Origin: a virus
Strand: one strand, 5' to 3'
Length of the DNA: 64,000 bases
Virus record (IMG/VR): IMGVR_UViG_3300010430_000024
Location: 1 to 64,000 of that record
Shown here: piece by piece, positions 3,001-51,611 of the stretch
Layout: each line of letters begins with the position of its first letter
Numbering within the stretch: position 1 is the first letter of the stretch
Translations under genes and position numbers: made by a program
Notes under the pieces: generated by a model
Told to the model about the DNA's origin: nothing
The model's database searches: none
The model's input: the letters and a program-made list of their open reading frames with translations, nothing else

Positions 3001-4577
3001 GGAAATTCAGTGCTGCTGTCCCAACTAAAGGTACTAATAGCAGGCCAACTACCAATAACTGCTGGCAGGTCTCCGAAAATAAGTAACTCAATGTCATCAC
3101 CAGTAGAATTTTCCCAGTCGATGCCAATGGAATTCTTGAGTCCTATGAGGGTGCCATCGATATCTGTTCTGTACGCTGGGTCGCCAACAGTAAATCCTGC
3201 CGCTCCAGCTCCAAAACCGAACGCCTCAGTGGGTGGAGTAAAGTTCGCTGTATATCTGGCAGATTTAGTTATCCTGAGATCATCTATCCAACCATTATGG
3301 TATTCAGCTAACCCTGACCCGGTAGAGGCGACACCAATGTAAAACAGCCCCGTAGTGGCATGAAGGGAATCTGTTGATATATTGACTGTAGCACCCTGCT
3401 GAACTCCATCAACAAACAACCTCAGATCAGCGCCAGATCGACATGCAGCAATGTGATACCACTGATCATCGTCAGGGAACCATGAGCGAGTAGTATTGGT
3501 AGTTGAGGTGCCATTTGTTGAATAAATAAAACGCAAAGTTGCATCATGAAAACCAAACAAATAGGATCGTTGGCTTACCCCATTAGCGTCCCAAAAACCA
3601 CATAGCGTATGCTTTGACCCACCACCGGGAACTAACTCGAAACGTATCCAGCCTTCGATTGTAAAATCACCATCCGCAAGTTGCAGACCTGCGTCATTCG
3701 GGATAGTGATGTACCCCGGACCCGGTGACCCACCAACCTCATCAAAGAATGCTGAAGCGGTGCCATACTTGATAATTGAAGTATCGAGAGATACATCATC
3801 AACAAAAGTTAAGGTGTAATTATTAACAGATAGGTCGGGTGCTGTAGTCGCCCCATTGTCTCCATCAAACGGAACGAGAAGCGCAACATTAGCGTAATCA
3901 GGATCGCTGCCAGTTGTTTCCGAAAATACTACGAACTCTATAGAGTCGAAAGTCTCATTCTGCCAGTTGATTGAGTAATCGTTTGCTAGTTGTAGATACC
4001 CCTCGTACGGGTTCCACTTCAGCAGGCTTGCGGTGTCGTGCCAGTTCTCGCCGTCATCGTTATACAGCATGTCGAAAGCTGTCTGCGTGGTGAGGTCTGT
4101 GTCGGTAAGCTCAAGAAGAGTATCAACGCCACCACCAATAGAACCTACATCCTGCGATTCCCATCGGTTGTTTGCTTCGACCCACGTGAGTACCTGATCG
4201 TCTGTTGGGGTTGGCACATGGACATCAGTCAGTTCGCCAAGGGCTAATGACCCACCAGCTGTTCCGGGTAAGAACTCATCACCATCCCAGATAAGACTCT
4301 GACCAACAGAGGGTGAGCCATTAACGTCAGTAAGGTCGAAAATGCTTGACGGCACACTCAGGTCGGTGATGTCAGCTTCAACATGCGTGTGAATTATCGG
4401 CGCATAGATAGCGTCAAGGTCGTCGGCAAACTCAGTGTCAGGAATAACGGATTCTTCGTTTTCCAACGACTGAAAACGATATTCGAGAGCAGCCACAAGC
4501 TGCCGCATGTCATACGGCTTGATGGGTTCCTCTATCCGAAAGGAAGGAAACGCTACTCGCTGTTTGTTCCGACTCAT
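1..4577 (-). CDS. Large modular tail fibre / receptor-binding protein (>1500 aa, LamG-like and beta-propeller-like repeats); 3' end outside window
   Basis: Absent from the ORF track, apparently because it has no stop inside the window. ATG at 4577 overlaps the TGA of the upstream gene (ATGA) and reads MSRNKQRVAFPSFRIEEPIKPYDMRQLV. The same frame reads SLLLDGTGDWVTFPNSSD at the left edge. Frame was spot-checked, not read at every codon. Confidence 0.85.
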   Translation of the reverse strand, partial: MSRNKQRVAFPSFRIEEPIKPYDMRQLVAALEYRFQSLENEESVIPDTEFADDLDAIYAPIIHTHVEADITDLSVPSSIFDLTDVNGSPSVGQSLIWDGDEFLPGTAGGSLALGELTDVHVPTPTDDQVLTWVEANNRWESQDVGSIGGGVDTLLELTDTDLTTQTAFDMLYNDDGENWHDTASLLKWNPYEGYLQLANDYSINWQNETFDSIEFVVFSETTGSDPDYANVALLVPFDGDNGATTAPDLSVNNYTLTFVDDVSLDTSIIKYGTASAFFDEVGGSPGPGYITIPNDAGLQLADGDFTIEGWIRFELVPGGGSKHTLCGFWDANGVSQRSYLFGFHDATLRFIYSTNGTSTTNTTRSWFPDDDQWYHIAACRSGADLRLFVDGVQQGATVNISTDSLHATTGLFYIGVASTGSGLAEYHNGWIDDLRITKSARYTANFTPPTEAFGFGAGAAGFTVGDPAYRTDIDGTLIGLKNSIGIDWENSTGDDIELLIFGDLPAVIGSWPAISTFSWDSSTEFPQTETSGFKFNGDGTAGYTACLNNAAAGGIWRAGVTYSVPYRPENASPVQVLNESDTWGFCFADEGRSVYMAVGGTTLEIQERRNTGTAWNPVSGDLATKNYGFSVVGTPKGVTVSDDGLTLWYNVGPSIKEITMTAPFDLSTGTETNDEIVSGTNITEFLWSPDGLLLYVLHATKMDEYVATTPFDITTLSFGAIGIVNTRTGAGGNTEGFDVSPDSTVLILQQRWDNNSANNDTNLWLSAGGVEGGPGATAWTMGDPAYRTDIDGTLVGLKNDVGINWENPAAEDVEMLIFAGDFATISSIWGTDPDTDWTYVAVTHDTAALESTGIAQDVANGIDVFDLSDDGLHCIMGNNTEDVMRSYTLTTAYDFSNATSDGAADSLTNPWYTGRWIESGLQYMVQLASGNSVETYTSSSAYVINGSVAANATVLNSALGFPTVGESGYWMSRDGTKLCGVGEAAGSIYELRMFDLSTAYDITSYTLASNQRYDNMSGAPGNVIDDFTISEDGLTLIALYTTIFYIAKMTVPFDVTTITWTGSRNVQTDSGFGLWNQIHISQDGNRIFISRDSSTDPKICEYTKTVQNDPTTFYVGDPAYTTQIDGLITKITSALTSIEGDATIAGTLDVDGAVVLSDTLNAQGAVDFDSTLNVDAAGTFNTTLGVTGAVDFDDVLDVAGEASFQSDVSLSVVAAINIDANEVAALVPGVAAGDSDWSSVSILLDFEGADTATAAIDQAHPELVSSFFNQAQIDTAQFKFGTASALFDGTDDYIQFPQSTDMDLGSGDFTVECHVRFNGDPGTGDHQFFNKYLSTGSQASWSFAITNNNLRFGYSTTGADVVSRDQAWNPVGEQWYHLAATRTGGFLYHFVDGVQLGTEIADTGTIFTVTQPFTIGGIFAPSLVQDFNGWLDNIRVTKGVARYTANFTAPTEAYPAEDSDWASVSLLADFDGTDAATTYTSIDDGARVATFVANAQLDTAQTKFGSTSLLLDGTGDWVTFPNSSD

Positions 4578-32931: not shown

Positions 32932-33007
32932 TGGACCCGCTGCCGGGAGTCGAACCCGGTCTCTCCGCTTTGAAAGGCGTTGACACTCCACAGTGCCTTC
33001 AGCGAGT
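32932..33007 (-). tRNA. Atypical tRNA-like gene, Glu(TTC)-like with an 8-nt anticodon loop
   Basis: Acceptor CTCGCTG/CAGCGGG-T-CCA; T arm CCGGG-TTCGACT-CCCGG; D arm GGCACT-GTGG-AGTGTC; anticodon arm CGC-CTTTCAAA-GCG. Confidence 0.65.
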
Positions 33008-42763: not shown

Positions 42764-43443
42764 AACGGTGCCTCATAAACTTCGCTGTACCACTTCTGAT
42801 ACGGCTCCAGTATGTCCTGAACAAAACGGTTAGCCACAATGCTGTCGTGGTCAAGGTCAGCCCTACTGTTGATACCCAGTTCCTGATACATCCATAGCTT
42901 CGCAACATCTTCTCCCATGACTGGCGTTGACAGTATGTCGTCCTTCTTGTTGACCCACTCCCAGAACTCAGCGCTGCGACAGAACATAGCGGCGACATTC
43001 GATAGCTTCTGCTTCCCAGTGTCGTGCTGCTTCTCCACCCTGTCACGCATCTTGGGGTCGATCACCTCCTGATCGTCGTCCAGCTCGAACAGGGAGATCA
43101 GCAGGGCCGTCTTCCTGTTCATCCCCTCGAACGGATGACCCATGCCATCGTTGGCGATCCAGAACTTCGCGGTATGTCCGTTCTGCTGGCTGTCGTTCCA
43201 GCCTGCCAGCATCACCTCATCTTCGTACAAGGCGTGTCTGACTGCTCCTGCCGTGTGGCACGCCATCATGAACCGAGTCCCGGCCTTACCCTTGCGGCGC
43301 TTTGTGTACGCATGGAATGGGTTCCGCTTGTCCTCGGCCTTGTCGTTCATCGGTAGCTTGAACGTCACCGTAGAGCCTGTCTCGTCGCCCCACGCGGCAC
43401 TGTGCATTGTTACCTGTGCGCTGTATGAAATCATGGTGCCCAC
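42760..43443 (-). CDS. Hypothetical replication-module protein
   Basis: 227 aa; C-terminal GINSRADLD motif. Confidence 0.6.
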   Translation of the reverse strand: MGTMISYSAQVTMHSAAWGDETGSTVTFKLPMNDKAEDKRNPFHAYTKRRKGKAGTRFMMACHTAGAVRHALYEDEVMLAGWNDSQQNGHTAKFWIANDGMGHPFEGMNRKTALLISLFELDDDQEVIDPKMRDRVEKQHDTGKQKLSNVAAMFCRSAEFWEWVNKKDDILSTPVMGEDVAKLWMYQELGINSRADLDHDSIVANRFVQDILEPYQKWYSEVYEAPF

Positions 43444-44384
43444 CTCATTAGTGCTGCTGGTCGCAACCCCTCCATGTCCTCATGGAGAGAGTCAACCATA
43501 TCTGTGTCTATTGCCTCTGGCATTATCACGACGGTCTCGACCTTCAGCTTCTGCTTCATGGTCTTGGCGCAGGTAAAGGCAGCAGCCTGACCAGTGAACG
43601 ATGCGTCGTTGTCTGCCGCGATGATCACCTTCGTCACATGCCGTGGGATCGACTTGAACTCTGCCAGCCCGTGTGCGCTGATCGTCGCCCATGCTGGATG
43701 ACCAGTGAGCGACCATGCTGCCAGTGCGGTCTCGATTCCTTCTGCCAGCACGAGCGTATCCTCCGGCTCACCAAGGCGCACACAGGCTCCTGTGATGCTC
43801 TCCAGAGTGGGCATGATCTTCTTCTCTTTGCCGTCTGGTGTCAGGTATGTGCGGTGTATTGATACTGGCTCGCCCTTCGGGTTGCGGATAAGTCCCAGCA
43901 TCGCGTTGTAGGTTCCTTTGTGCGCCTTGCCGTCATACAGGTCCAACTTCTCGATGCCCCTGATATCCTTGCCAACCTGATCAACGATCTCCGATGGGAT
44001 GCCACGACCAACCAGATAGTTATAGGCATAGAATGGCTCATTCGCGTTTGACCATGTGACGTTCAGGTTTTTCCTGCGCCTGTCGATATCAACGTCAGGC
44101 TTGAATGGCTTCTCTTCGACGTTATTCACAACCTCATCCACACGCCGTGCGGCTTCGGAAAAGTCGATGCCCAGCGTTTCCATGATGAGCTTAAACCCAT
44201 CTCCTGTACCACAGTGATTGCAGAACCAGTCACCATCGTTCCGATTGTTATCGAACCTGTAACGGTCAGTGCCTCCGCATATAGGACATGATGTGTGCCG
44301 TCTACTGACGGCTGATTCACCAACAAGTTGTGTGATGATGCCATCCCACTTACCCTTGGCTGCTTGCTTGGTTGTCATTCTCAT
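43431..44384 (-). CDS. DNA primase (Zn-binding + TOPRIM)
   Basis: HTSCPICGGTDRYRFD...WFCNHCGTGDG; AEGIETALA; IIAADND. Confidence 0.9.
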   Translation of the reverse strand: MRMTTKQAAKGKWDGIITQLVGESAVSRRHTSCPICGGTDRYRFDNNRNDGDWFCNHCGTGDGFKLIMETLGIDFSEAARRVDEVVNNVEEKPFKPDVDIDRRRKNLNVTWSNANEPFYAYNYLVGRGIPSEIVDQVGKDIRGIEKLDLYDGKAHKGTYNAMLGLIRNPKGEPVSIHRTYLTPDGKEKKIMPTLESITGACVRLGEPEDTLVLAEGIETALAAWSLTGHPAWATISAHGLAEFKSIPRHVTKVIIAADNDASFTGQAAAFTCAKTMKQKLKVETVVIMPEAIDTDMVDSLHEDMEGLRPAALMRWAP

Positions 44385-45909
44385 TCTGTTTCTCCATCGC
44401 TTTTGCGTATCTTATATCCATGCCCCGGCACCATGACTTCACCTCTGGTGCTGGTTCTTCGAGCGGCACTTTTGAAAAGTCATTGTCAGGCCACACGCCC
44501 ATTTTCTTTTTGTATTTATGTGCCGCCCAGCCCTCTACTTTTTTCACCTTCGGCTTCTTTGTTCCAATCGCCAGTAGCGACCTGTACCACAGCTCACGTT
44601 CCTCTGGTGTGAACTTACGCTCCTTGGCTGTGCGTCGTGATTCTGCTCTGACCTCCATCAGGTCACCAGAGCGTGACTCTACGTACCTGCCCTTCTTCTC
44701 TGGGATATGACCACAGGTCGGACACGGCAGTTGCCGGGTGTACACCGTCGCACACATGACGCATGTGATAGGCTTCTTGTCATCTAAATCCTTTTGTCGT
44801 TCAGCTGGAGTTGATATGAGAGCGCGACCCTCTTCGAGCAGCCACCTGTGGTTATCTTGGATGAAACCGTGTTCGTAGACGTTACCGCTATGGTCGATGA
44901 TGCGGGAGTCTTTCTTGTTTGTGGATTCGCAAGTTCGGAGCGTCCTACCGCCCATCTGAATATAGAGGCCCAAGTGCTTTGTCGGACGAGCGAGAACACA
45001 GGCACTCAGGCTGGGTTCATCGAACCCCTCGGTGAGTACCCCGTAGTTGCAGACAACCTGTACCTTGCCTACCTTCAGGTCGTACACCAGCTGCTTCCGT
45101 TCAGGCAGCGGCGTATCTCCATCCACGTGCGCCACCGCAACCCCTGCTTTATGGAACTCGTCGCGCAAGTTAATCGAATGTTTGACCCCGCTCGCAAACA
45201 CTACAGTTGGCCTGTCATGAGCAAGCCTGTACCAGTGTTCAACAATGTCACCAACCAATGAGCGCTGATTCATTTTCGCTTCGAGGTCAGCCGGGTCATA
45301 GTCACCACCACGAACCTTCACTCCAGTCAGGTCGAGAATGGTCGGCGCGAAGGTGATGGGTTGAACCAGATACCCGTTGTCGATCATCCACTGGGTACTG
45401 GGACCGAGCACCATGTAATCGTACACGTGACCCAGACCCTTGCCGTCTCCGCGAATGGGTGTAGCGGTCAATCCTATAACGACACTTTCACCGTAGTGGT
45501 TGATGAGTGTGATGTAGGTCGGTGCGAGAGAGCGGTGAGCTTCATCAACGATAACTATGTCAGAGTCAGGGAAGGGCAGCTTGTCCGTTGTGATACATCT
45601 GGCAGCGATAGTCTGGACACTGGCGACTTGGCAATCCGCTGCGCCATATGGATATTCGCCAGCCATGAGAATCCCATGGTCCACTCCGAAGTTTTCGAGC
45701 TTGTCAGCACACTGGTAAATAAGCTCGCGGCGATGGGCGAGGAACTGGGAACGACGACCCTTCTGCGCGGCAAGTTTTACGATCTGTGCTGCTATGACAG
45801 TCTTGCCCCCACCAGTAGGGACGACCACGAGAATCTTCCGGTGTCCAGCGGCAATCGCCTGTCTCACCTGATTGATGATGTCGTTCTGGTAGTCGCGAAG
45901 GACGAACAC
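44350..45909 (-). CDS. Superfamily 2 (DExH) helicase
   Basis: LRDYQ, PTGGGKT, DEAH, LTATP, EGFD, QMGGR and a C-terminal Zn finger. Confidence 0.92.
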   Translation of the reverse strand: MFVLRDYQNDIINQVRQAIAAGHRKILVVVPTGGGKTVIAAQIVKLAAQKGRRSQFLAHRRELIYQCADKLENFGVDHGILMAGEYPYGAADCQVASVQTIAARCITTDKLPFPDSDIVIVDEAHRSLAPTYITLINHYGESVVIGLTATPIRGDGKGLGHVYDYMVLGPSTQWMIDNGYLVQPITFAPTILDLTGVKVRGGDYDPADLEAKMNQRSLVGDIVEHWYRLAHDRPTVVFASGVKHSINLRDEFHKAGVAVAHVDGDTPLPERKQLVYDLKVGKVQVVCNYGVLTEGFDEPSLSACVLARPTKHLGLYIQMGGRTLRTCESTNKKDSRIIDHSGNVYEHGFIQDNHRWLLEEGRALISTPAERQKDLDDKKPITCVMCATVYTRQLPCPTCGHIPEKKGRYVESRSGDLMEVRAESRRTAKERKFTPEERELWYRSLLAIGTKKPKVKKVEGWAAHKYKKKMGVWPDNDFSKVPLEEPAPEVKSWCRGMDIRYAKAMEKQNENDNQASSQG

Positions 45910-46298: not shown

Positions 46299-46350
46299 TG
46301 CTTCCCTTCTTAGTATTAACAGTATTGCTAATCATTGGTGGGTAGGGTTT

Positions 46351-46432
46351 ATCTACATCTACATCTACATCTATATCTACATGTACAAATGTCCGTAGAC
46401 AGTCCACAGACAATAGCAACTGTCCATAGACA
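46351..46432. repeat. Candidate replication-origin repeats
   Basis: ATCTAC x5 (one variant) at 46351-46380; GTCCRYAGACA x3 at 46391, 46402 and 46422. Confidence 0.55.
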
Positions 46433-46434
46433 GG

Positions 46435-46689
46435 TCAAGCAGGAAAGATGTCGGTAATACTGAGGGGATAGTCGTTGCGGCTTGCGATCTCGATGATCTT
46501 GAGTGCGGCTGGTCCACGTGGTTTTGACTTGCCTGCCTCCCAGACCCGGAGCGTGTCGATCTTGGCTTCTATCAGGTCAGCAAACTCTGGTCGGTCCATT
46601 CTGAGTTCTTCACGGAAGCGTCGAATCACATTCTGGTGGGGAGGTGTCGCGTCCGGTCTCTCGTTGGGACCAAAGGAATTTGCCATCAC
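46435..46689 (-). CDS. XRE/Cro-like HTH regulator
   Basis: IRRFREELRMDRPEFADLIEAKIDTLRVWEAGKSKP. Confidence 0.85.
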   Translation of the reverse strand: MMANSFGPNERPDATPPHQNVIRRFREELRMDRPEFADLIEAKIDTLRVWEAGKSKPRGPAALKIIEIASRNDYPLSITDIFPA

Positions 46690-46739
46690 GGTGTTCTCGT
46701 TTGTGTTATCAGGAAGGGTGATTATCTTACCACTGAGTG

Positions 46740-46767
46740 TTGACTTTCACCAGCGCGAGAGTATCAT
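46740..46767 (+). promoter_or_regulatory. Promoter of the Y-RNA array
   Basis: TTGACT-16 nt-TATCAT; predicted +1 coincides with G46774, the start of unit 1. Confidence 0.7.
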
Positions 46768-46773
46768 GCTTTC

Positions 46774-46866
46774 GCCTGAGCCGAATGCTCGTCGGTTATC
46801 CGAGCCAAACCTTCGGACGTAACCGCGAAAGCGGTCGTCAATCCGACAGCAACAACATGTTCAGGC
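46774..46866 (+). ncRNA. Y-like RNA unit 1
   Basis: GCCTGAGC(C)GA / CATGTTCAGGC stem; GTCGG-TTATC...CCGAC; internal CCGC-GAAA-GCGG hairpin. Confidence 0.75.
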
Positions 46867-46869
46867 TAA

Positions 46870-46969
46870 GCGGGATGCCAGTGGTGGCATTGCTCCATCG
46901 TCTACACCATGCTCGACAGCGAGCCGACTGAGGATGGTTATCATAGTTCGATTCTATAATCCCGCTCCA
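46870..46969 (+). ncRNA. Unit 2: tRNA-ended RNA with a permuted Ro-binding helix replacing the anticodon arm
   Basis: GCGGGAT/ATCCCGC-T-CCA; D arm GCC-AGTGGT-GGC; T arm ATAG-TTCGATT-CTAT; CATGCTCG-ACAG-CGAGCCGA followed by GGTTATC. Confidence 0.75.
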
Positions 46970-47008
46970 ATTTTGACACGTTGCGAAGCGACGTGGTGAT
47001 ACAAGTTT

Positions 47009-47090
47009 TGTGGACCGAAGATCAATCGTTATCTGTTGAGTGCGAAAAGCGCTTCTTGGAAATACCTCGGTTGCTCATACCATGTCCACA
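47009..47090 (+). ncRNA. Y-like RNA unit 3
   Basis: TGTGGAC(C)GA / CATGTCCACA; CAATCG-TTATC...CGGTTG. Confidence 0.75.
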
Positions 47091-47099
47091 TTTAAGTTT

Positions 47100-47180
47100 T
47101 GCGAGCCGATGAGTAAGAGCGTTACCCAACCTGTTAAGTTGATGGCGAAAGCCACACCGCTCTCTCGCAACATGTTCGCA
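47100..47180 (+). ncRNA. Y-like RNA unit 4 with Asn-type anticodon hairpin
   Basis: TGCGAGC(C)GA / CATGTTCGCA; AGAGCG-TTACC...CGCTCT; CAAC-CTGTTAA-GTTG. Confidence 0.75.
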
Positions 47181-47188
47181 TTTAAGTT

Positions 47189-47335
47189 TTTAGGACCGGA
47201 TGGATTGAAGGTTATCTTCTGAAAAGAGTAGGTCACTGGTTCGATTCCAGTTGCGCACCCTACAATGGTGCGTATAGCTCAGCTGGCAGAGCAACTTGCC
47301 GTAAGGCATCTCCTTCGCCAACAACATGTCCTAAA
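47189..47335 (+). ncRNA. yrlA: YrlA-type Y RNA (permuted tRNA-like domain), unit 5
   Basis: TTTAGGAC(C)GG / CATGTCCTAAA; T arm ACTGG-TTCGATT-CCAGT; loop-closed acceptor TGCGCACC/GGTGCGTA; D arm GCTC-AGCTGGCA-GAGC; adjacent to Ro60. Confidence 0.88.
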
Positions 47336-47341
47336 TTTAGT

Positions 47342-47369
47342 TTGACTTCCTATGTCAGTTGTGTACAAT
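47342..47369 (+). promoter_or_regulatory. Promoter for the Ro60 leader/mRNA
   Basis: TTGACT-16 nt-TACAAT. Confidence 0.7.
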
Positions 47370-47477
47370 CGCCTTTCGGTTGTTCAACAACATGCTCGAC
47401 AGCCCCACAACCGGGCGCAGCTGCGTAGCTGCTTTTATTCGAGCCGAGGAAGAATCGTTATCTATGATGAAGAGGCG
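47370..47477 (+). ncRNA. Unit 6: circularly permuted Y-like element in the Ro leader
   Basis: 3'-type strand CAACAACATGCTCGA precedes 5'-type strand TCGAGCCGA...AATCGTTATC. Confidence 0.65.
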
Positions 47478-47535
47478 TTTGAGGCTCAGTCGGTGAATAG
47501 ACTTCTCAAAGGAGGACACCACTGAGCCGAGCCAA

Positions 47536-47571
47536 TTTTTGTATGCTCGTGATGGACGAGCCGAACAGGGG
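47536..47571 (+). promoter_or_regulatory. Unit 7: minimal Ro-binding hairpin overlapping the Ro60 ribosome-binding site
   Basis: TTTTGT-ATGCTCGT-GATGG-ACGAGCCGA-ACAGGGG, 6 nt before ATG 47578. Confidence 0.6.
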
Positions 47572-47577
47572 AAAAAG

Positions 47578-49209
47578 ATGGACTATTCAAAGCACGTAAA
47601 TACTCGCGCCACCTCACAGCGTGAGCGCACTCCCGGCAGGACTGATGAAGTCAAGAACAGCGAAGGTGGATTCGTCCATGCTGTTAGTGATTGGGATCGT
47701 CTTGACCGCTTCCTGATTCTGGGTTCTGAAGGTGGAACCTTTTACATCAGCGAGAGCAACCTGACCAAGGACAATGCTGAAGGCACCATCCGACTAATCA
47801 AACAGGATGGACTTCGTGTCGTTAATACGGTTGTCGAAATCTCACAGGCTGGTCGTTCGCATAAGAACGATGCTGCCCTGTTTGTACTCGCTATGTGCGC
47901 GAAGCTGGGCAATGAGCAGACTCGTAAGCTGGCACTTGGCGTATTGCCCAAGGTCGCTCGAACGGGTACTCACTTGTTTCAGTTCGCAACCTTCATTGAA
48001 GCCTTCGGTGGTTGGGGCCGCGCAACTAAGCGTGCCTTCCAGCGTTGGTACAATGAGCGGGACAACGACAAGCTGGCTTACCAGCTGTTGAAGTACCGTC
48101 AGCGTGATGGTTGGACTCACCGTGACATCATGCGTCTGGCTCACCCGGTTACGACCGATGACCAGAAGCGTGCGATGTTCGATGTGACGACTCACCCAGA
48201 GAAGCTGGATAACGTAGACGTTCGTGCCGAGCTGCCTGAGATTTATCAGGGCTATCACATGGCGCGTGACGACATGCCCAGCGCTGACAGGGTTGAGCTT
48301 CTGAAAGACTTCAACCTGTCGTGGGAAATGCTACCGACTGAGTGGCTGAAGGATGAAGCTGTGAACACGCAGCTGCTCCAGAAGATGCCGCTCATGGCTA
48401 CCATTCGTCAGCTCGGTAAGATGACTGCGAACGGTACGCTGAAGCCGATGGACATGAACACCAAGCTGGTGTTGGAGCGTCTGATGGATGACGAGCAGAT
48501 CAAGCGCTCACGCATTCACCCGATGCACTACTTGCTGGCGTTGAAGAACTACTCAGCTGGTCACGGCTTCCGTGGCGGCATGACTTGGAACTCTGACCCA
48601 CGTGTGATCTCTGCACTGGATAAGGGATTCGAGAAGTCGTTCGCGAATGTCGAGCCTACTGGTAAGGCGTTCATGCTCGGTGTCGATGTCTCAAGCTCGA
48701 TGCGATGTGCGGTCTCTGGATCGAACATCAGTTGTGCAGAGGCTGCTGGTGCCATGGCAATGGTGATCGCTCGTACTGAGCCTGTTCACTTCGTCCACGG
48801 CTTTACCAGTGGATCGAGTCGCGGCTACAGCTATCGTCAGTCCAATGTTGAGGGCTTCGTTGATCTCGGCATTGGCTCGAACGACTCAATGGCAAGCGTG
48901 ATGAGTAAGGTGCAGAACCGAAACTTTGGTGGCACCGACTGCGCAGTTCCGATGTTGTACGCCTCGGCAAACAACATCATGGTTGACACCTTCGTGGTGT
49001 TGACTGATTCGGAAACGTGGGCTGGTGACATCAAGCCAGCTCAGGCTTTGCAGTCATACCGTCAGACCCATAACCCGAACGCTAAGCTCGTGGTTGTTGG
49101 CATGACTTCAAATGGATTCAGCATTGCTGATCCGAACGATGCTGGCATGTTGGATGTGGTCGGCTTCGACGCTAACGTACTCCCCGTTATCGCGGAGTTC
49201 AGTAGATAA
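47578..49209 (+). CDS. rsr: Ro60 / Rsr (TROVE + vWA) RNA-binding protein
   Basis: NSEGGF...RLDRFLILGSEGGTFY, GWGR...WY, KYRQRDGWTHRD..RLAHP, IHP, DVSSSM, GGTDCA.PM, TDSETW and SIADPNDAGMLDVVGFD. Confidence 0.96.
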   Translation: MDYSKHVNTRATSQRERTPGRTDEVKNSEGGFVHAVSDWDRLDRFLILGSEGGTFYISESNLTKDNAEGTIRLIKQDGLRVVNTVVEISQAGRSHKNDAALFVLAMCAKLGNEQTRKLALGVLPKVARTGTHLFQFATFIEAFGGWGRATKRAFQRWYNERDNDKLAYQLLKYRQRDGWTHRDIMRLAHPVTTDDQKRAMFDVTTHPEKLDNVDVRAELPEIYQGYHMARDDMPSADRVELLKDFNLSWEMLPTEWLKDEAVNTQLLQKMPLMATIRQLGKMTANGTLKPMDMNTKLVLERLMDDEQIKRSRIHPMHYLLALKNYSAGHGFRGGMTWNSDPRVISALDKGFEKSFANVEPTGKAFMLGVDVSSSMRCAVSGSNISCAEAAGAMAMVIARTEPVHFVHGFTSGSSRGYSYRQSNVEGFVDLGIGSNDSMASVMSKVQNRNFGGTDCAVPMLYASANNIMVDTFVVLTDSETWAGDIKPAQALQSYRQTHNPNAKLVVVGMTSNGFSIADPNDAGMLDVVGFDANVLPVIAEFSR

Positions 49210-49260: not shown

Positions 49261-49390
49261 ATGTGTGAGTGAAGCTGGACAGGCACCTATTAAGGTACAC
49301 GAGTCCGGGTCTGACTGGGGAGCATTCCCCTATTAGGTGAGCGGTTGAAAGTATCGCTGTAAAGCAGGTTGGATTCCTGCCCTCGCACAT
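49261..49390 (+). ncRNA. tRNA-like RNA with expanded anticodon arm
   Basis: ATGTGTGAG/CTCGCACAT; T arm GCAGG-TTGGATT-CCTGC; variable arm AGCGGT/ATCGCT; CACCTA/TAGGTG enclosing two hairpins. Confidence 0.6.
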
Positions 49391-49438: not shown

Positions 49439-50383
49439 ATGTCCCTTACAAAGGCGCAGCTCGAAGAACGACGAACAGGGGTAGGTGGCTCAGACGCAGC
49501 GACCGTACTCGATATCAATCCATACACCACCGCTTATGAACTCTATCTCGATAAGCTGGGTGAAGCCCCACCAGAAGACGAAGACTTTCTCAAGGAAGCA
49601 CGCTACTGGGGTTCCGTTTTGGAACAGCCTGTCTGCGACCGTTATGCGGAAGAGACTGGCTACAAAGTCCAGAAAGCCAACCAACTTATTCGCTCGAAAA
49701 AGCACCCGTTTATGATCGCCAACATCGACCGCAAGGTGGTGGGCGAAGATCGTAAGATTGGGTTCGAGGCAAAGACCGCAGCTCGACCAGATGGCTGGGG
49801 TGACTCTGGCTCAAACGAGATACCTCCGTACATCATGCTCCAGTGTCAACACTACCTCGCTGTCACTGGATACGACTGCTGGGACCTCGCTGTACTCATC
49901 GGTAACCGCGACTATCGCATGTACCGAATCAACCCCATTGAATCGATCATCACTGACCTCATAGAGGCAGAGGAAGAGTTTTGGGATCAAGTACAGGCGA
50001 AGGTGGCACCAGAGCCGAAATGGCAGTCAGCGGCAACCACGCGGCTGCTCAAGAACATGTACCCCGGCACCAACGGTCAGGTAGTACGCTTGCCAGAGGT
50101 CGCTCAAAAATATCAGGACGTAATGAAAGATGCCCAAGAACAAAAGAAGTTATTCGACGGTGTTATCGACGGCTGCAAGAACCGGATTGCTATGCTCCTT
50201 GGCGAAGCCGCAGTCGGCATCCTCCCCGACCAGACCGCATTTACCCGTAAGGAACAAACACGGAAAGAATTCACGGTTGCAGAGAATACTTACGTTGTCA
50301 CAAGGCACGCCACAAAGTTACCAGTCGCGGCTGTTAAAGCTATCGAAGAAGGAACAGTAATCCAGATCGAGGCACCGTCATGA
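49439..50383 (+). CDS. YqaJ-like (lambda Exo family) exonuclease
   Basis: RRTGVGGSDAA, WG..LE, HPFMIANIDR, FEAKT and Y.LQCQHY. Confidence 0.92.
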   Translation: MSLTKAQLEERRTGVGGSDAATVLDINPYTTAYELYLDKLGEAPPEDEDFLKEARYWGSVLEQPVCDRYAEETGYKVQKANQLIRSKKHPFMIANIDRKVVGEDRKIGFEAKTAARPDGWGDSGSNEIPPYIMLQCQHYLAVTGYDCWDLAVLIGNRDYRMYRINPIESIITDLIEAEEEFWDQVQAKVAPEPKWQSAATTRLLKNMYPGTNGQVVRLPEVAQKYQDVMKDAQEQKKLFDGVIDGCKNRIAMLLGEAAVGILPDQTAFTRKEQTRKEFTVAENTYVVTRHATKLPVAAVKAIEEGTVIQIEAPS

Positions 50384-50691
50384 GCCAACGATTCGCGATT
50401 ACGATTAACGATGACGGCACCGTCGAATGGCACGGAGTGGACGCTGGCAAGACCACAGTGCTGGCAATGAATGAAGAGAAGAGGCTCATCGTGCTGCACA
50501 CGGCTGGAAGTTACTGGTCGGATAATGGTGGCAGGCATTACGGTGAAGCAAGAGTCGCTGTGCACGAGTTTGAATATGCAAAGCGCTCTAATCCGTTCAA
50601 TGAACCGAACCCAAGAGAATTATTTTTAACTGAATTGTTTGGCGTGATGGACTGGAAACCACGCGGCAATAACTGGAGACCAAAACAATGA
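50380..50691 (+). CDS. Hypothetical protein
   Basis: 103 aa, coupled on both sides. Confidence 0.55.
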   Translation: MSQRFAITINDDGTVEWHGVDAGKTTVLAMNEEKRLIVLHTAGSYWSDNGGRHYGEARVAVHEFEYAKRSNPFNEPNPRELFLTELFGVMDWKPRGNNWRPKQ

Positions 50692-51611
50692 CAACGAAGA
50701 AAGCAGCTAAGAAAAAAGCGAAGAAGAAAACGTCGCGTGCACGTACACCAGCGAAGCGTAAAGAGGTGATCGACACATCCACAGGTGAGGTCGTAGTGAC
50801 TCAGGCTGAGGCCGAAGAGTCGTTGACTCAGGCTGCTGGTAAGGCGCTTGCCAGTGACCCTGCGTTCGCCAAGTACGAACTCGCTAAGCGTGTTGCTCAG
50901 TCGCTGGCGAACTCTAACCTTGTGCCATCGGATTACCGTGGCAAACCCAACGATGTCTTTGTTGCAATCAACATGGGATCAGAGCTTGGCATGGAGCCGT
51001 TTCAGGCTATCCAGTCCATAGCTGTGATCGAAGGAAAGCCCTGTCTGTATGGCGACGGCTTGATTGGGGTAGTGAGAGCCTCCCCGAAATGTCTCTGGAT
51101 TGAGGAAACCCTTTCTGAGGATGGTAAAACAGCAACCTGTCGCACACAGCGCGACGGTGATCCTAATCCGGTGACAGCGCAGTACTCCATGACTGACGCT
51201 ATGCAGGCAGGCATTGACTCGAAGTTCAACTGGAAGAAGCACCCGAAGAGGATGCTCCAGATGCGTGCTCGTGCGTACTGCCTGCGTGATGCTTACCCCG
51301 ACCTACTCAAAGGTCTGGGTGTCGTTGAAGAGAGGCAGGACCATGACGACACACCTCCACCAGTGACTGAATACACGCTGCCTGAGCAGCAGAACAACGA
51401 GCAGCTTGAGAAGGCCAAGGATGTCTTTGGTGAAGGCGTTGAGGTGTGTCCTACGCTGTCCGAGGTCGAGCGTGCGATACATCAGTCTGACTCCATGGAG
51501 GACCTGCTGGCTGCTGGTCAGAAAGCCAAGCTATTAACGCCAGAGGAACAGAGCACTGCTCGCATCACGTACAAGAAGATGAGGGCTGTTCTGCTGGAGG
51601 ATCAGCAATGA
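50688..51611 (+). CDS. recT: RecT/Red-beta-like single-strand annealing protein
   Basis: LVP.DYRGKP..V..AI..G.ELG..P.QAIQSIAVI.GKP.LYGD; W...PKRML..RAR..CLRDAYPD.L.G. Confidence 0.85.
   Translation: MTTKKAAKKKAKKKTSRARTPAKRKEVIDTSTGEVVVTQAEAEESLTQAAGKALASDPAFAKYELAKRVAQSLANSNLVPSDYRGKPNDVFVAINMGSELGMEPFQAIQSIAVIEGKPCLYGDGLIGVVRASPKCLWIEETLSEDGKTATCRTQRDGDPNPVTAQYSMTDAMQAGIDSKFNWKKHPKRMLQMRARAYCLRDAYPDLLKGLGVVEERQDHDDTPPPVTEYTLPEQQNNEQLEKAKDVFGEGVEVCPTLSEVERAIHQSDSMEDLLAAGQKAKLLTPEEQSTARITYKKMRAVLLEDQQ

What the first reader, a model, noticed from the sequence alone, without database searches (positions are those of the whole stretch)
46870..46969. Inside-out Y RNA: tRNA ends with CCA and a Ro handle in place of the anticodon arm
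Seen: 7-bp acceptor GCGGGAT/ATCCCGC, discriminator T, encoded CCA, D arm and canonical TTCGATT T loop. Where the anticodon arm belongs, the Ro helix appears with strands in reversed order, closed by a loop (CATGCTCG-ACAG-CGAGCCGA), followed by GGTTATC. This is the circular permutation of unit 5. Known: YrlA has a loop-closed acceptor and cannot be charged; G1-C72, C2-G71, G3-C70 and U73 are bacterial tRNA-Gly acceptor determinants. Inference: a potentially RNase P-processed and glycylatable Ro-bound RNA, conceptually like tmRNA's tRNA domain, or an evolutionary link between tRNA and Y RNA.
Basis: partly seen in the sequence, partly recalled or inferred. Interest (0 to 1): 0.92.

Follow-up and report, generated by a model that had tools for sequence, protein, structure and literature searches.

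The report
tRNA-shaped Y RNA with free CCA end
An uncultured phage encodes a conserved 100-base RNA built like a glycine tRNA, with real tRNA ends, whose anticodon loop is replaced by the docking site for the phage's Ro60 protein, a way of building a Y RNA that I did not find described in print.

Summary
Window 46870-46969 (+) has a 7-bp acceptor stem, D arm, 5-bp anticodon-type stem, UUCGAUU T arm, U73 and an encoded CCA. A 33-nt insert replaces the anticodon loop. It carries the helix/internal-loop module shared by the neighbouring Y-RNA units, but closed by a loop instead of by the RNA ends.

It lies 609 nt upstream of an intact Ro60 gene (TROVE + vWA_Ro60), in an array that includes a YrlA-like unit.

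I found 14 such sequences (about 11 lineages) in phage contigs, metagenomes and two Chloroflexia MAGs. Wherever the contig is long enough, the unit is upstream of Ro on the same strand, and in two cases it sits inside a tRNA gene array.

All five helices covary: 98% of cells pair, 19 of 25 pairs show double-sided changes, and 0 of 500 shuffles reach this. A model built without the window finds it at E 7e-21.

The glycine-type acceptor set U73/G1-C72/C2-G71 is present in 11 of 14.

It is neither a YrlA by topology nor a decoding tRNA. It is best read as a new topological variant of the tRNA-like Y RNA. Ro binding, processing and charging are untested, and no RNA data exist. The scan noted an analogous un-permuted form on other DNA (e1-6158639), which I did not test.

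The parts
46740..46767 (+). Sigma-70-like promoter (TTGACT-16-TATCAT) in front of the Y-RNA array
   Evidence: It matches 10 of 12 consensus positions. The region holds 5 promoter-like sites versus 1.0 +/- 0.9 in shuffles. The same GTGTTGACTT...TA..AT box stands before unit 1 in L003, L004, L005 and L007.
46775..46865 (+). Unit 1: a standard-topology Y-RNA-like unit. Its outer helix CCUGAGC/GUUCAGG is formed by the unit's two ends. It ends 4 nt before the element.
   Evidence: Read from the sequence. A unit of this kind directly precedes the element in L003, L005, L007, L027, L161, L275 and L278.
46870..46876 (+). Acceptor stem, 5' strand (GCGGGAU)
   Evidence: It pairs 7 of 7 with 46959-46965. 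All 7 pairs show double-sided changes across 12 sequences.
46877..46888 (+). D-arm-like hairpin GCCA-GUGG-UGGC. It is atypical: no 8-9 linker before it and a 6-nt linker after it.
   Evidence: All 8 core members keep GG in this loop. 3 of its 4 pairs show double-sided changes.
46895..46899 (+). Anticodon-type stem, 5' strand (CCAUC)
   Evidence: It pairs with 46933-46937. 4 of 5 pairs show double-sided changes and 100% of cells pair.
46900..46932 (+). 33-nt insert in place of the 7-nt anticodon loop. It runs: 3'-strand-type motif ..CACCAU, apical helix GCUCG (46911-46915) / CGAGC (46920-46924) closed by ACAG, then 5'-strand-type motif CGA.. . This is the inferred Ro60 docking module.
   Evidence: The same two motifs (GRRCCGR and CA[A/C]CAUG) flank the outer helices of units 1, 3, 4 and 5 in the opposite backbone order. 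The junction lengths are kept at 9-12 and 8-9 nt in 8 members. The apical loops vary freely: ACAG, GCAA, GUAA, GAAA, GUU, AAAUA, AUACGU, and inserts of 27 and 29 nt. GAGCCGA resembles the GGUCCGA contacted by X. laevis Ro60 and the YrlA motif GNCGAAN0-1G (PMC4201824, passage).
46933..46937 (+). Anticodon-type stem, 3' strand (GAUGG), followed by the variable-loop-like UUAU(C)
46942..46958 (+). T arm: CAUAG-UUCGAUU-CUAUA (C.A at the base)
   Evidence: Three of the 4 T-stem pairs in the model show double-sided changes across the 12 sequences. The invariant T loop is partly a product of the search patterns.
46959..46969 (+). Acceptor stem 3' strand (AUCCCGC), discriminator U73 and encoded CCA
   Evidence: UCCA is followed by an A/U-rich tail in all close relatives. 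Whether CCA is encoded follows the usage of the tRNA genes on the same contigs.
46977..46995 (+). 8-bp hairpin 8 nt after the CCA (CACGUUGC-GAA-GCGACGUG). It has no U tract and its role is unknown.
   Evidence: Read from the sequence. A hairpin stands at the same place, with different letters, in L003, L007, L027 and L278.
47194..47336 (+). Unit 5: YrlA-like unit of standard topology (Ro helix at the ends, acceptor closed by a loop)
   Evidence: Rfam RF02553 YrlA matches 47205-47321 at 36.4 bits, E 5.9e-06, below the gathering score of 69.
47578..49209 (+). Ro60 (Rsr) gene, 543 aa
   Evidence: Pfam vWA_Ro60 E 5.4e-60 and TROVE E 6.4e-39.

Best explanation
The element is a real, conserved, structured RNA: a Y RNA built on an un-permuted, tRNA-Gly-like body.

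Proposed course of events:
1. It is transcribed from the promoter at 46740 as part of a polycistronic array of Y-RNA units (inferred).
2. It is then handled like a tRNA. RNase P cuts before G46870, and 3' trimming stops at the encoded CCA (46969). These cuts also free the 3' end of unit 1 and the 5' side of unit 3 (inferred from the anatomy and from what is established for tRNA precursors and for M. smegmatis YrlA).
3. The mature ~100-nt RNA folds into a tRNA L-shape. The tip of its anticodon arm carries the same helix / internal loop / helix module as the neighbouring units, and the phage Ro60 docks there (inferred from motif identity only).

The particle would have the same three-dimensional layout as a Ro-YrlA particle. 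The difference is that the backbone opening lies at the acceptor end instead of in the Ro helix. The RNA is therefore a single piece with an authentic, exonuclease-resistant N73-CCA terminus, free to meet enzymes that read tRNA acceptor ends.

Shown: the structure, its conservation, its association with Ro genes and tRNA arrays, and its glycine-type acceptor. Inferred: transcription, cleavage sites, Ro binding and the effector role.
For: - Structure: the cloverleaf is the MFE and centroid fold of the isolated 100 nt. The full cloverleaf is the MFE in 6 of 8 core relatives folded independently.
- Hand-indexed helices: 200 of 204 cells are canonical and 18 of 26 pairs change on both sides.
- Tool counts: 98.4% paired with 19 of 25 pairs on 8 sequences, and 98.2% with 19 of 25 on 12 sequences. 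In both, 0 of 500 shuffles reach this and slid controls pair at 31-45%.
- Independent detection: model R2, built without the window, L027, L003 and L278, scores the window 86.5 bits, E 7.3e-21, as the top hit in 465 kb. The accepted units L027, L278, L003, L246 and L208 score 44-79 bits, the less clear variants L008 and L068 47.3 and 45.5 bits, and the best genuine tRNA 39.7 bits.
- Ro association: the window unit is 609 nt upstream of a TROVE + vWA_Ro60 gene. All 8 core units lie upstream of Ro on the same strand. Of the units found by patterns that were blind to Ro, 7 of 7 on contigs long enough have Ro about 50 to 2,070 nt downstream: L027, L057, L119, L141, L161, L208 and L246. Only 4 of 120 genome contigs pattern loci hold Ro within the locus.
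- tRNA handling: in L246 the unit starts 1 nt after tRNA-Phe at the end of a 22-tRNA array. In L119 it starts 7 nt after tRNA-Asn inside a tRNA cluster.
- Encoded CCA follows local tRNA usage. In the window, 2 of 2 tRNA-like genes encode CCA and so does the unit. In L119, 0 of 5 tRNAs encode it and the unit does not. In L246, 14 of 22 do and the unit does.
- Gly-like body: the acceptor is identical to phage tRNA-Gly(GCC) genes. Of 228 ARAGORN tRNAs in 42 sources, 8 are Gly, yet the two best genuine tRNA hits of model R1, and 3 of its best 4, are Gly.
- Precedent: M. smegmatis YrlA is cut by RNase P and gains CCA while bound to Rsr (PMC4201824, section 8).
Against: - There is no RNA evidence. 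All 12 listed sequencing runs that hold the DNA are DNA runs, so transcription and the mature ends are unverified.
- Ro binding rests on motif resemblance alone. The window motif GCCGAC matches GNCGAA at 5 of 6 positions, and the apical helix is only 3-5 bp, against 6-7 bp in the standard units.
- Thermodynamic support is modest: z from -0.68 to -3.73. Two of the 8 core MFEs (L027, L003) differ inside the acceptor.
- In the MFE of the whole 881-nt array the acceptor helix is not formed.
- The window's D arm is atypical (no 8-9 linker).
- L004, a close relative with a complete upstream region, lacks the unit, so it is dispensable.
- None of the 4 cultured Ro phages examined, out of 356 phage records with a Ro match, has one.
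- The alignments behind the pair counts were fitted to the structure or indexed by hand.
- The family was collected with patterns that require GUUAYC and the T loop, so those features are not independent evidence.
Confidence: 0.62

Rival explanations
1. It is a chargeable RNA. After RNase P and CCA maturation it is glycylated by the host GlyRS and perhaps bound by EF-Tu. Ro60 would then be tethered to an aminoacylated tRNA mimic, as tmRNA is to alanine.
For: - The window carries all four bacterial Gly acceptor determinants: U73, G1-C72, C2-G71 and G3-C70 (Table 1 of PMC9976931).
- U73 + G1-C72 + C2-G71 are present in 11 of 14 sequences (8 of about 11 lineages), while acceptor pairs 3-7 covary freely. 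This includes units whose Ro is only 42-46% identical to the window's (L141, L246).
- The same review says that U73 with G71 is a combination found only in tRNA-Gly isoacceptors.
- tRNA-Gly genes are the best true-tRNA matches.
- CCA is encoded in 11 of 14.
Against: - The anticodon determinants C35 and C36 are missing, because there is no anticodon loop.
- No consistent anticodon-like triplet exists.
- L057, L119 and L208 have G73 or A73 and other first base pairs.
- G3-C70 is replaced by C3-G70 in 5 of 14.
- Retention of the first two pairs and U73 could simply reflect descent from a tRNA-Gly gene.
- No charging data of any kind exist.
Confidence: 0.15
2. It is mainly a cis-acting punctuation element. 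The tRNA shape recruits RNase P and 3' tRNA-processing enzymes to cut the polycistronic transcript and release the flanking Y RNAs, as tRNA-like elements do at the ends of some long non-coding RNAs. The excised piece would have no function of its own.
For: - Unit 1 ends 4 nt before G1 in the window, and 3-4 nt before it in all close relatives.
- In L057, L141 and L285 the next Y unit starts 3-4 nt after the tail.
- No terminator-like site lies between units 1 and 5.
- Cleavage of tRNA-like structures by RNase P to form the 3' end of an upstream RNA is established (cited in 10.1101/312249, Introduction passage).
Against: - A pure processing signal needs no Ro-type module. Yet the module, its junction lengths and its two helices are conserved with compensatory changes.
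- Other unit junctions in the same array lack any tRNA-like element.
- The two roles are not exclusive.
Confidence: 0.15
3. It is a decoding tRNA gene interrupted by a short intron or insert that is removed to give a normal tRNA.
For:
- At a relaxed threshold it of 9 units as intron-containing tRNAs.
Against: - The called anticodons disagree between relatives: Gln, Ala, Gly, Leu, Asp, Gly, Leu, Gly.
- The insert is the conserved part, and it matches the Ro-type motifs of the neighbouring units.
- At 33 nt it is far too short for a bacterial group I intron (from general knowledge).
- The genetic context is bacterial-phage: YqaJ, RecT and sigma-70-like promoters.
Confidence: 0.03
4. It is a chance cloverleaf at the junction of two ordinary Y units, with no function.
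For: - Junctions of tandem standard YrlA units do give spurious model hits: L118, L129 and L069.
- The single-sequence z-score is only -1.81.
Against: - The acceptor stem closes across the whole unit, and all 7 of its pairs covary.
- No downstream partner exists for the acceptor 3' strand.
- The independent model gives E 7.3e-21.
Confidence: 0.01

Closest known systems
[quoted passage not shown] 2014, PMC4201824; sections 8 and 10 read)
   Same: A Ro60/Rsr-associated RNA encoded upstream of rsr. Its tRNA-like domain has a 7-bp acceptor stem, a tRNA-type 5' end and a CCA 3' end. Its authors considered possible aminoacylation.
   Different: There the gene has YrlA order and the open acceptor arises only by cutting a closing loop. 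That gives two fragments (about 82 and 65 nt) held together by the Ro-binding stem, and CA is added after transcription. Here the gene itself is in tRNA order, the Ro-type helix is covalently closed by a loop, the product would be one piece, and CCA is encoded.
Salmonella Typhimurium YrlA, Rfam RF02553 (Wang et al. 2018 preprint 10.1101/312249; abstract and passages read)
   Same: A tRNA L-shape with D and T arms, with the Ro-binding stem emerging from the anticodon-stem position. A YrlA-like unit (36.4 bits) stands 225 nt downstream in the same array.
   Different: [quoted passage not shown] The element here has the opposite connectivity, and the Rfam YrlA model does not match it at E up to 10.
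Deinococcus radiodurans Yrn1 (as described in PMC4201824, Discussion passage)
   Same: According to that passage, the order of its T and D arms relative to the RNA 5' end differs from YrlA. That is consistent with a D-before-T order as in the element, though the passage does not state the order.
   Different: In Yrn1 the RNA ends still form the Ro-binding helix, and the stem-loop between the arms takes the anticodon-arm place. So there is no free acceptor or CCA.
Bacterial and phage tRNA-Gly
   Same: The same acceptor stem as phage tRNA-Gly(GCC) genes. Also U73, CCA, GGUUAUC after the anticodon stem and the UUCGAUUC T loop. It is the best true-tRNA match of both models.
   Different: There is no 7-nt anticodon loop and no anticodon, and the D arm is atypical in the window. 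Neither ARAGORN (default) nor Rfam tRNA calls it.
Thermus phage phiLo Ro60 with Yrl1 and Yrl2 (NAR 2025, PMC12135203; abstract and passages read)
   Same: A phage Ro60 with several Y-RNA-like genes directly upstream. They bind the phage Ro60 and, together with it, the host PNPase.
   Different: Those Yrls have the canonical 5'-3' terminal stem, and no tRNA ends are described.
Scan note e1-6158639 (another genome; an AI note, not tested here)
   Same: A CCA-ended, un-permuted tRNA-shaped phage RNA carrying a handle for a Ro60-like protein.
   Different: That handle is reported at the 26/27 hinge with an anticodon retained, and the RNA travels with a divergent Ro60 branch. Here the module replaces the anticodon loop and Ro is a canonical TROVE + vWA protein.

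Membership tests
YrlA (Rfam RF02553; Chen et al. 2014) | Encoded within 4 kb of a Ro60 ortholog, on the same strand | tested here: met
   The unit lies 609 nt upstream of the TROVE + vWA_Ro60 gene, on the + strand.
YrlA (Rfam RF02553; Chen et al. 2014) | GNCGAAN0-1G motif near the 5' end (putative Rsr contact) | tested here: inconclusive
   GCCGAC at 46923-46928 matches 5 of 6 positions but sits mid-molecule rather than near the 5' end. L285 has the full motif.
YrlA (Rfam RF02553; Chen et al. 2014) | tRNA-like D and T arms | tested here: met
YrlA (Rfam RF02553; Chen et al. 2014) | 5' and 3' ends pair to form the Ro-binding stem, and the acceptor-like stem is closed by a loop | tested here: not met
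   The connectivity is the opposite: the ends form the acceptor, and the Ro-type helix is closed by ACAG.
YrlA (Rfam RF02553; Chen et al. 2014) | Match to the family covariance model at its gathering score (69 bits) | tested here: not met
   There is no RF02553 match over 46870-46969, even at E up to 10.
tRNA (Rfam RF00005 / ARAGORN) | 7-bp acceptor, T arm with a canonical loop, and N73-CCA | tested here: met
tRNA (Rfam RF00005 / ARAGORN) | 7-nt anticodon loop with a conserved anticodon | tested here: not met
   A 33-nt insert takes its place. Anticodon calls are inconsistent across relatives.
tRNA (Rfam RF00005 / ARAGORN) | Recognition by tRNA gene finders | tested here: not met
   ARAGORN (default) and Rfam tRNA give no call here, either at the gathering score or at E up to 10.
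tRNA-Gly identity (bacterial; Giege & Eriani 2023, Table 1) | Acceptor determinants U73, G1-C72, C2-G71 and G3-C70 | tested here: met
   The window has 4 of 4. Across the family, 6 of 14 have 4 of 4 and 11 of 14 have the first three.
tRNA-Gly identity (bacterial; Giege & Eriani 2023, Table 1) | Anticodon determinants C35 and C36 | tested here: not met
   There is no anticodon loop.
tRNA-Gly identity (bacterial; Giege & Eriani 2023, Table 1) | Aminoacylation by GlyRS | not testable with these tools
   This needs a biochemical assay.
tmRNA tRNA-like domain | G3.U70 alanine identity, with a linked mRNA-like tag frame | tested here: not met
   The element has G3-C70. ARAGORN's tmRNA search of the window found nothing.
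Y RNA in the functional sense (RNA bound by Ro60) | Physical binding to Ro60 | not testable with these tools
   Only motif identity with the neighbouring units and linkage to Ro genes are available.

The most novel reading that the evidence does not exclude
The element is a true client of the tRNA-Gly pathway that is also bound to Ro60. It would be cut by RNase P, end in CCA, be recognised through U73/G71 by GlyRS or by other enzymes that read the tRNA-Gly acceptor end, and perhaps be charged. The phage would then deliver Ro60 and its nuclease partners to the translation or tRNA-surveillance machinery, or decoy enzymes that act on tRNA-Gly.

In the same reading it represents the un-permuted form from which YrlA-type RNAs could arise by tandem duplication. 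Two head-to-tail copies, read from the middle of the first to the middle of the second, give exactly the YrlA order.
Probability: 0.15. Interest if true: 0.9.

Novelty: new variant of a known kind. Interest (0 to 1): 0.7.

Why it matters
Bacterial and phage Y RNAs of the YrlA type are known as tRNA mimics. What their tRNA-like domain is for remains open. [quoted passage not shown]

This element is the natural counterpart with normal tRNA connectivity:
- It is one piece, with a real acceptor stem.
- It carries glycine-type identity nucleotides and often an encoded CCA.
- In some genomes it sits inside tRNA gene arrays.

If Ro60 binds it, several questions become directly testable with a defined 100-nt RNA and its own protein: whether Ro particles engage acceptor-end enzymes (RNase P, the CCA-adding enzyme, 3' exonucleases, synthetases, EF-Tu), and how Y RNAs arose from tRNAs.

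It also shows that the Ro-type module works as a portable cassette. The cassette can be closed by a loop, and it occurs three times in this form in this one locus.

Tried and rejected
- Rfam at gathering and at E up to 10: no family covers 46870-46969. The only weak overlap, RAGATH-26 on the minus strand (16.5 bits, E 5.5), is noise.
- DNA search of 46400-47600 against 50,697 GenBank phage records: no match.
- Expression: the look-up of sequencing runs listed 12 holders, all DNA (marine or sediment metagenomes), and no RNA holder. I did not use read laying because DNA contigs cannot show RNA ends.
- MAFFT alignment of 8 units (A1) mis-aligned the 5' half. RNAalifold on it recovered only the acceptor and T stems plus a false helix. 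I replaced it with model-guided alignments and hand indexing.
- Cultured phages: I examined 4 of the 356 phage records with a Ro match (Gordonia Cashline, Streptomyces Beuffert, Mycobacterium Sparky, Sinorhizobium Phosso). Model R1 found no unit, only weak tRNA hits at E 0.18-0.38. R2 found only tRNAs there.
- Model hits rejected as junctions of two standard YrlA units: L118, L129:2062-2179, L069:7980-8118, L142:5770-5882 and L120:1738-1851.
- L008:5523-5622, L068:2040-2163 and L094:10162-10260 score 34.6-47.3 bits with R2 but have unclear modules or no Ro on their fragmentary records. I left them out of all counts.
- Intron-tRNA reading: rejected.
- Overlapping ORF 46737-46931 (64 aa): rejected as coding. 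Relatives differ there by compensatory stem changes and by a 29-nt insert in L003 (a length that is not a multiple of three) and a 27-nt insert in L278.
- Literature: four full-text searches gave no description of a Y RNA in tRNA order with the Ro helix closed by a loop. The reviews PMC10870794 and PMC6047535 are not held.
- A scan note mentioned a preprint on a phage Ro60-like protein countering a defence system. I did not find it.
Full report
**Setting**

The window is part of a 73,646-base virus record rated complete. Around the finding lie phage replication and recombination genes:
- a Toprim primase (43431-44384, minus strand)
- a ResIII/DEAD helicase (44350-45909, minus strand)
- a YqaJ exonuclease (49439-50383)
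- a RecT-like protein (50688-51611)
- an intact Ro60 gene at 47578-49209 (Pfam vWA_Ro60 E 5.4e-60, TROVE E 6.4e-39).

Between a sigma-70-like promoter (46740-46767, 10 of 12 matches) and the Ro start lies an 800-nt non-coding stretch made of repeated RNA units.

Units at about 46775-46865, 47009-47092, 47103-47183 and 47194-47336 have the standard Y-RNA layout. Their two ends pair into an outer helix (CCUGAGC/GUUCAGG, UGUGGAC/GUCCACA, GCGAGC/GUUCGC, UAGGAC/GUCCUA). On the 5' strand the helix is followed by CGR, then 4-8 nt, an inner stem and GUUAYC. On the 3' strand it is preceded by CA(A/C)CAUG. The last of these units is recognised by the Rfam YrlA model (36.4 bits, E 5.9e-06, below the gathering score of 69).

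The 5'-strand motif GAGCCGA/GGACCGA is close to the GGUCCGA contacted by X. laevis Ro60 and to the YrlA motif GNCGAAN0-1G (Chen et al. 2014, PMC4201824, passage).

**The observation**

At 46870-46969 the same motifs appear in the opposite backbone order, inside a tRNA frame:
- acceptor GCGGGAU/AUCCCGC
- a D-arm-like hairpin, GCCA-GUGG-UGGC
- a 5-bp stem CCAUC/GAUGG where the anticodon stem belongs
- a 33-nt insert: GUCUACACCAU, then the helix GCUCG-ACAG-CGAGC, then CGACUGAG
- UUAU(C)
- a T arm with loop UUCGAUU
- U73 and CCA.

Folded alone, this cloverleaf is both the MFE and the centroid structure, but z is only -1.81. ARAGORN and the Rfam tRNA and YrlA models do not call the element.

**Relatives**

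I collected relatives in three ways: through Ro60 relatives in IMG/VR, through DNA patterns blind to Ro in viral, genome and metagenome collections, and through covariance models. This gave 14 sequences with the same architecture: the window, L027, L003, L278, L005, L161, L275, L007, L057, L119, L141, L285, L246 and L208. They form about 11 lineages at less than 85% identity.

L003 and L278 carry unrelated 29- and 27-nt inserts in the apical loop. Other apical loops are GCAA, GUAA, GAAA, GUU, AAAUA and AUACGU. So the tip tolerates anything, as expected if it takes the place of the free ends of a standard Y RNA. The two junction strands keep their lengths (9-12 and 8-9 nt).

L208 has an extra hairpin between the D arm and the inner stem. 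I dropped three less clear variants (L008, L068, L094) from all counts.

**Structure statistics**

- Hand-indexed helices of 8 core sequences: 200 of 204 cells are canonical and 18 of 26 pairs change on both sides.
- Model-guided alignment of 8 sequences: 98.4% of cells paired versus 71.4 +/- 2.4 in shuffles, and 19 of 25 pairs with double-sided change versus 11.0 +/- 1.8. In both measures 0 of 500 shuffles reach the observed value.
- Model-guided alignment of 12 sequences: 98.2% versus 72.2 +/- 1.9, and 19 of 25 versus 13.0 +/- 1.5, again 0 of 500. Sliding the partners by 1-3 columns gives 31-45% pairing and 4-5 such pairs.
- All five helices contribute. In one search the pairs with double-sided change are: acceptor 7 of 7, D 3 of 4, anticodon-type 4 of 5, apical 2 of 5, T 3 of 4.
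- These alignments lean towards the structure, because they were fitted to it.
- As a non-circular check I built model R2 from seven relatives at most 68% identical to the window, excluding the window, L027, L003 and L278. It ranks the window element first in 465 kb (86.5 bits, E 7.3e-21). The accepted units L027, L278, L003, L246 and L208 score 44-79 bits, the less clear variants L008 and L068 47.3 and 45.5 bits, and the best genuine tRNA 39.7 bits.
- Independent MFE folding gives the full cloverleaf in 6 of 8 core sequences, with z from -0.68 to -3.73.
- Against this, the MFE of the whole 881-nt array does not form the acceptor helix.

**Context**

All 8 core units lie upstream of a Ro gene on the same strand. 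Every unit discovered without reference to Ro, and lying on a contig long enough to judge, also does: L027, L057, L119, L141, L161, L208 and L246, at roughly 50 to 2,070 nt. Ro was present in only 4 of the 120 genome loci fetched by the pattern.

Two contexts tie the unit to tRNA biogenesis:
- In a Chloroflexia MAG (L246) it starts 1 nt after tRNA-Phe, as the last member of a 22-tRNA array.
- In phage contig L119 it starts 7 nt after tRNA-Asn, inside a tRNA cluster.

Whether CCA is encoded follows the local tRNA genes:
- In the window both tRNA-like genes encode it, and so does the unit.
- In the record of L007, a tRNA-Tyr does, and so does the unit.
- In L119, 0 of 5 tRNAs do, and the unit does not.
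- In L246, 14 of 22 do, and the unit does.

In the close relatives, unit 1 always ends 3-4 nt before G1. In L057, L141 and L285 the next unit begins 3-4 nt after the tail. tRNA-type cuts would therefore also release the neighbouring units.

One close relative with a complete upstream region, L004, lacks the element.

**tRNA-Gly likeness**

The first pattern scan returned many genuine phage tRNA-Gly(GCC) genes with exactly the window's acceptor stem, U73 and CCA. That pattern itself demanded GUUAUC, the T loop and CUCCA, so only the acceptor identity is independent evidence.

A less biased test used 42 sources holding 228 ARAGORN tRNAs, of which 8 are Gly:
- The best genuine tRNA hits of model R1 are Gly(UCC) 31.3 bits, Gly(UCC) 23.3, Arg 18.5 and Gly(GCC) 17.9. 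Three tRNA-Cys follow, the other U73 isotype.
- R2's best genuine tRNA is again a Gly(UCC).

Table 1 of Giege & Eriani 2023 (PMC9976931, passages) lists the bacterial Gly determinants as U73, G1-C72, C2-G71 and G3-C70, plus C35 and C36.
- The window has all four acceptor determinants.
- 6 of 14 sequences have all four.
- 11 of 14 have U73, G1-C72 and C2-G71, while pairs 3-7 covary freely.
- L057, L119 and L208 do not have them (G73 or A73).
- There is no anticodon. With introns allowed, ARAGORN assigns mutually inconsistent anticodons. This also disposes of the intron-tRNA reading.

**What is known**

- Chen et al. 2014 (PMC4201824; sections 8 and 10 and further passages read) defined YrlA and reported 355 putative YrlAs in 254 bacteria and 22 phages. 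They showed that M. smegmatis YrlA, which has a 7-bp acceptor stem, is cut by RNase P in the acceptor loop and gains CCA in vivo while bound to Rsr, and 'could potentially be aminoacylated'.
- Wang et al. [quoted passage not shown]
- A 2025 paper (PMC12135203; abstract and passages read) shows a Thermus phage Ro60 binding two upstream Y-like RNAs of canonical topology and assembling with host PNPase.
- In four full-text searches I found no description of a Y RNA in un-permuted tRNA order with the Ro helix closed by a loop.
- The scan itself holds a note on another genome (e1-6158639) describing a CCA-ended un-permuted tRNA with a Ro60-partner handle at the 26/27 hinge. That is the same idea with a different insertion site. 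I did not test it.

**Reading**

The best-supported explanation (0.62) is a one-piece, tRNA-topology Y RNA. It would be made and trimmed like a tRNA, bound by the phage Ro60 at the tip of its anticodon arm, and would present a genuine glycine-type acceptor end as its effector side. Its excision would also punctuate the array.

The structure, its conservation and its context are shown. Transcription, the cleavage sites and Ro binding are inferred. Charging is possible but unsupported beyond the acceptor identity set (0.15). A purely cis-acting processing role is the main sober rival (0.15).

Because a defining YrlA feature (ends in the Ro helix, closed acceptor) is tested and not met, I do not file it as a YrlA. 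I file it as a new topological variant of the tRNA-like Y RNA kind.

Noticed in passing
window 47342-47450: A second Ro-type module closed by a loop: CAACAACAUGCUCG, a loop of about 40 nt, then CGAGCCGA..GUUAUC. It follows its own promoter-like site (47342-47369, 10 of 12 matches). A terminator-like hairpin with a U tract (47417-47432) lies inside its apical loop. This could be a leader or attenuator of the Ro mRNA. Similar units occur in L004 and L005.
   Followed up: partly
window 47544-47568: A third loop-closed copy of the helix (AUGCUCG-UGAUGGA-CGAGCCGA) stands just before the purine-rich ribosome-binding site and the ATG of Ro60. It is almost unchanged in L002, L003, L004, L005/L006 and L007. 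It is a candidate for Ro60 binding its own leader (autoregulation).
   Followed up: partly
window 46977-46995: An 8-bp hairpin 8 nt after the CCA of the element, with no U tract. A hairpin occupies the same place, with different letters, in L003, L007, L027 and L278. Its role is unknown (a 3' processing or protection signal?).
   Followed up: no
window 32932-33006 (- strand): An odd tRNA-like gene that ARAGORN calls 'tRNA-???', with a 6-nt anticodon loop, a C1-G72 acceptor, U73 and an encoded CCA. R2 gives it 17.8 bits.
   Followed up: no
window 49261-49390: Another RNA in tRNA order directly after the Ro stop codon. It has acceptor GUGUGAG/CUCGCAC, a T arm with loop UUGGAUU, and an anticodon-type stem with a 44-nt insert that contains GAGUCCGG. 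There is only a weak R2 hit over its 3' part (14.9 bits, E 0.55).
   Followed up: partly
L246:692-3690 (- strand) and L270:4306-4408 (- strand): A Chloroflexia MAG carries a 22-tRNA array that ends in the tRNA-topology Y unit. Ro60 lies 2.07 kb further on, and another loop-closed Ro-type module lies in between. This is a chromosomal or prophage tRNA array coupled to Ro.
   Followed up: partly
L020:2659-2830: A tRNA-Gly-like gene in a 359-kb phage contig: a GCGGGUA acceptor, UCCA, and an insert of about 95 nt in the anticodon loop after CUUCCA. It has no Ro-type motif and may be an intron.
   Followed up: no
L038:about 1790-1852 and L046:about 4377-4439: A minimal tRNA-like RNA behind a consensus TTGACT/TATAAT promoter. 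It has a 7-bp acceptor, a single hairpin, GUUAUC, a T arm and UCCA, but no D arm and no Ro module.
   Followed up: no
L153, L281, L286: Standard-topology YrlA-type units whose acceptor-closing loop begins with N-CCA (ACCA, UCCA, GCCA), as if prepared for RNase P cutting and a ready-made CCA end as in M. smegmatis. L281 even has a Gly-type acceptor (G1-C72, C2-G71, U73).
   Followed up: no
window 46340-46440: Tandem hexamer repeats (ATCTAC)n and repeated GTCC(G/A)TAGACA-like words lie between the divergent replication genes and a small gene at 46435-46689 (minus strand). That gene looked repressor-like to me by eye but matched no Pfam family. The repeats are iteron-like and suggest an origin or operator region. 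Relatives have different repeats at the same place.
   Followed up: no
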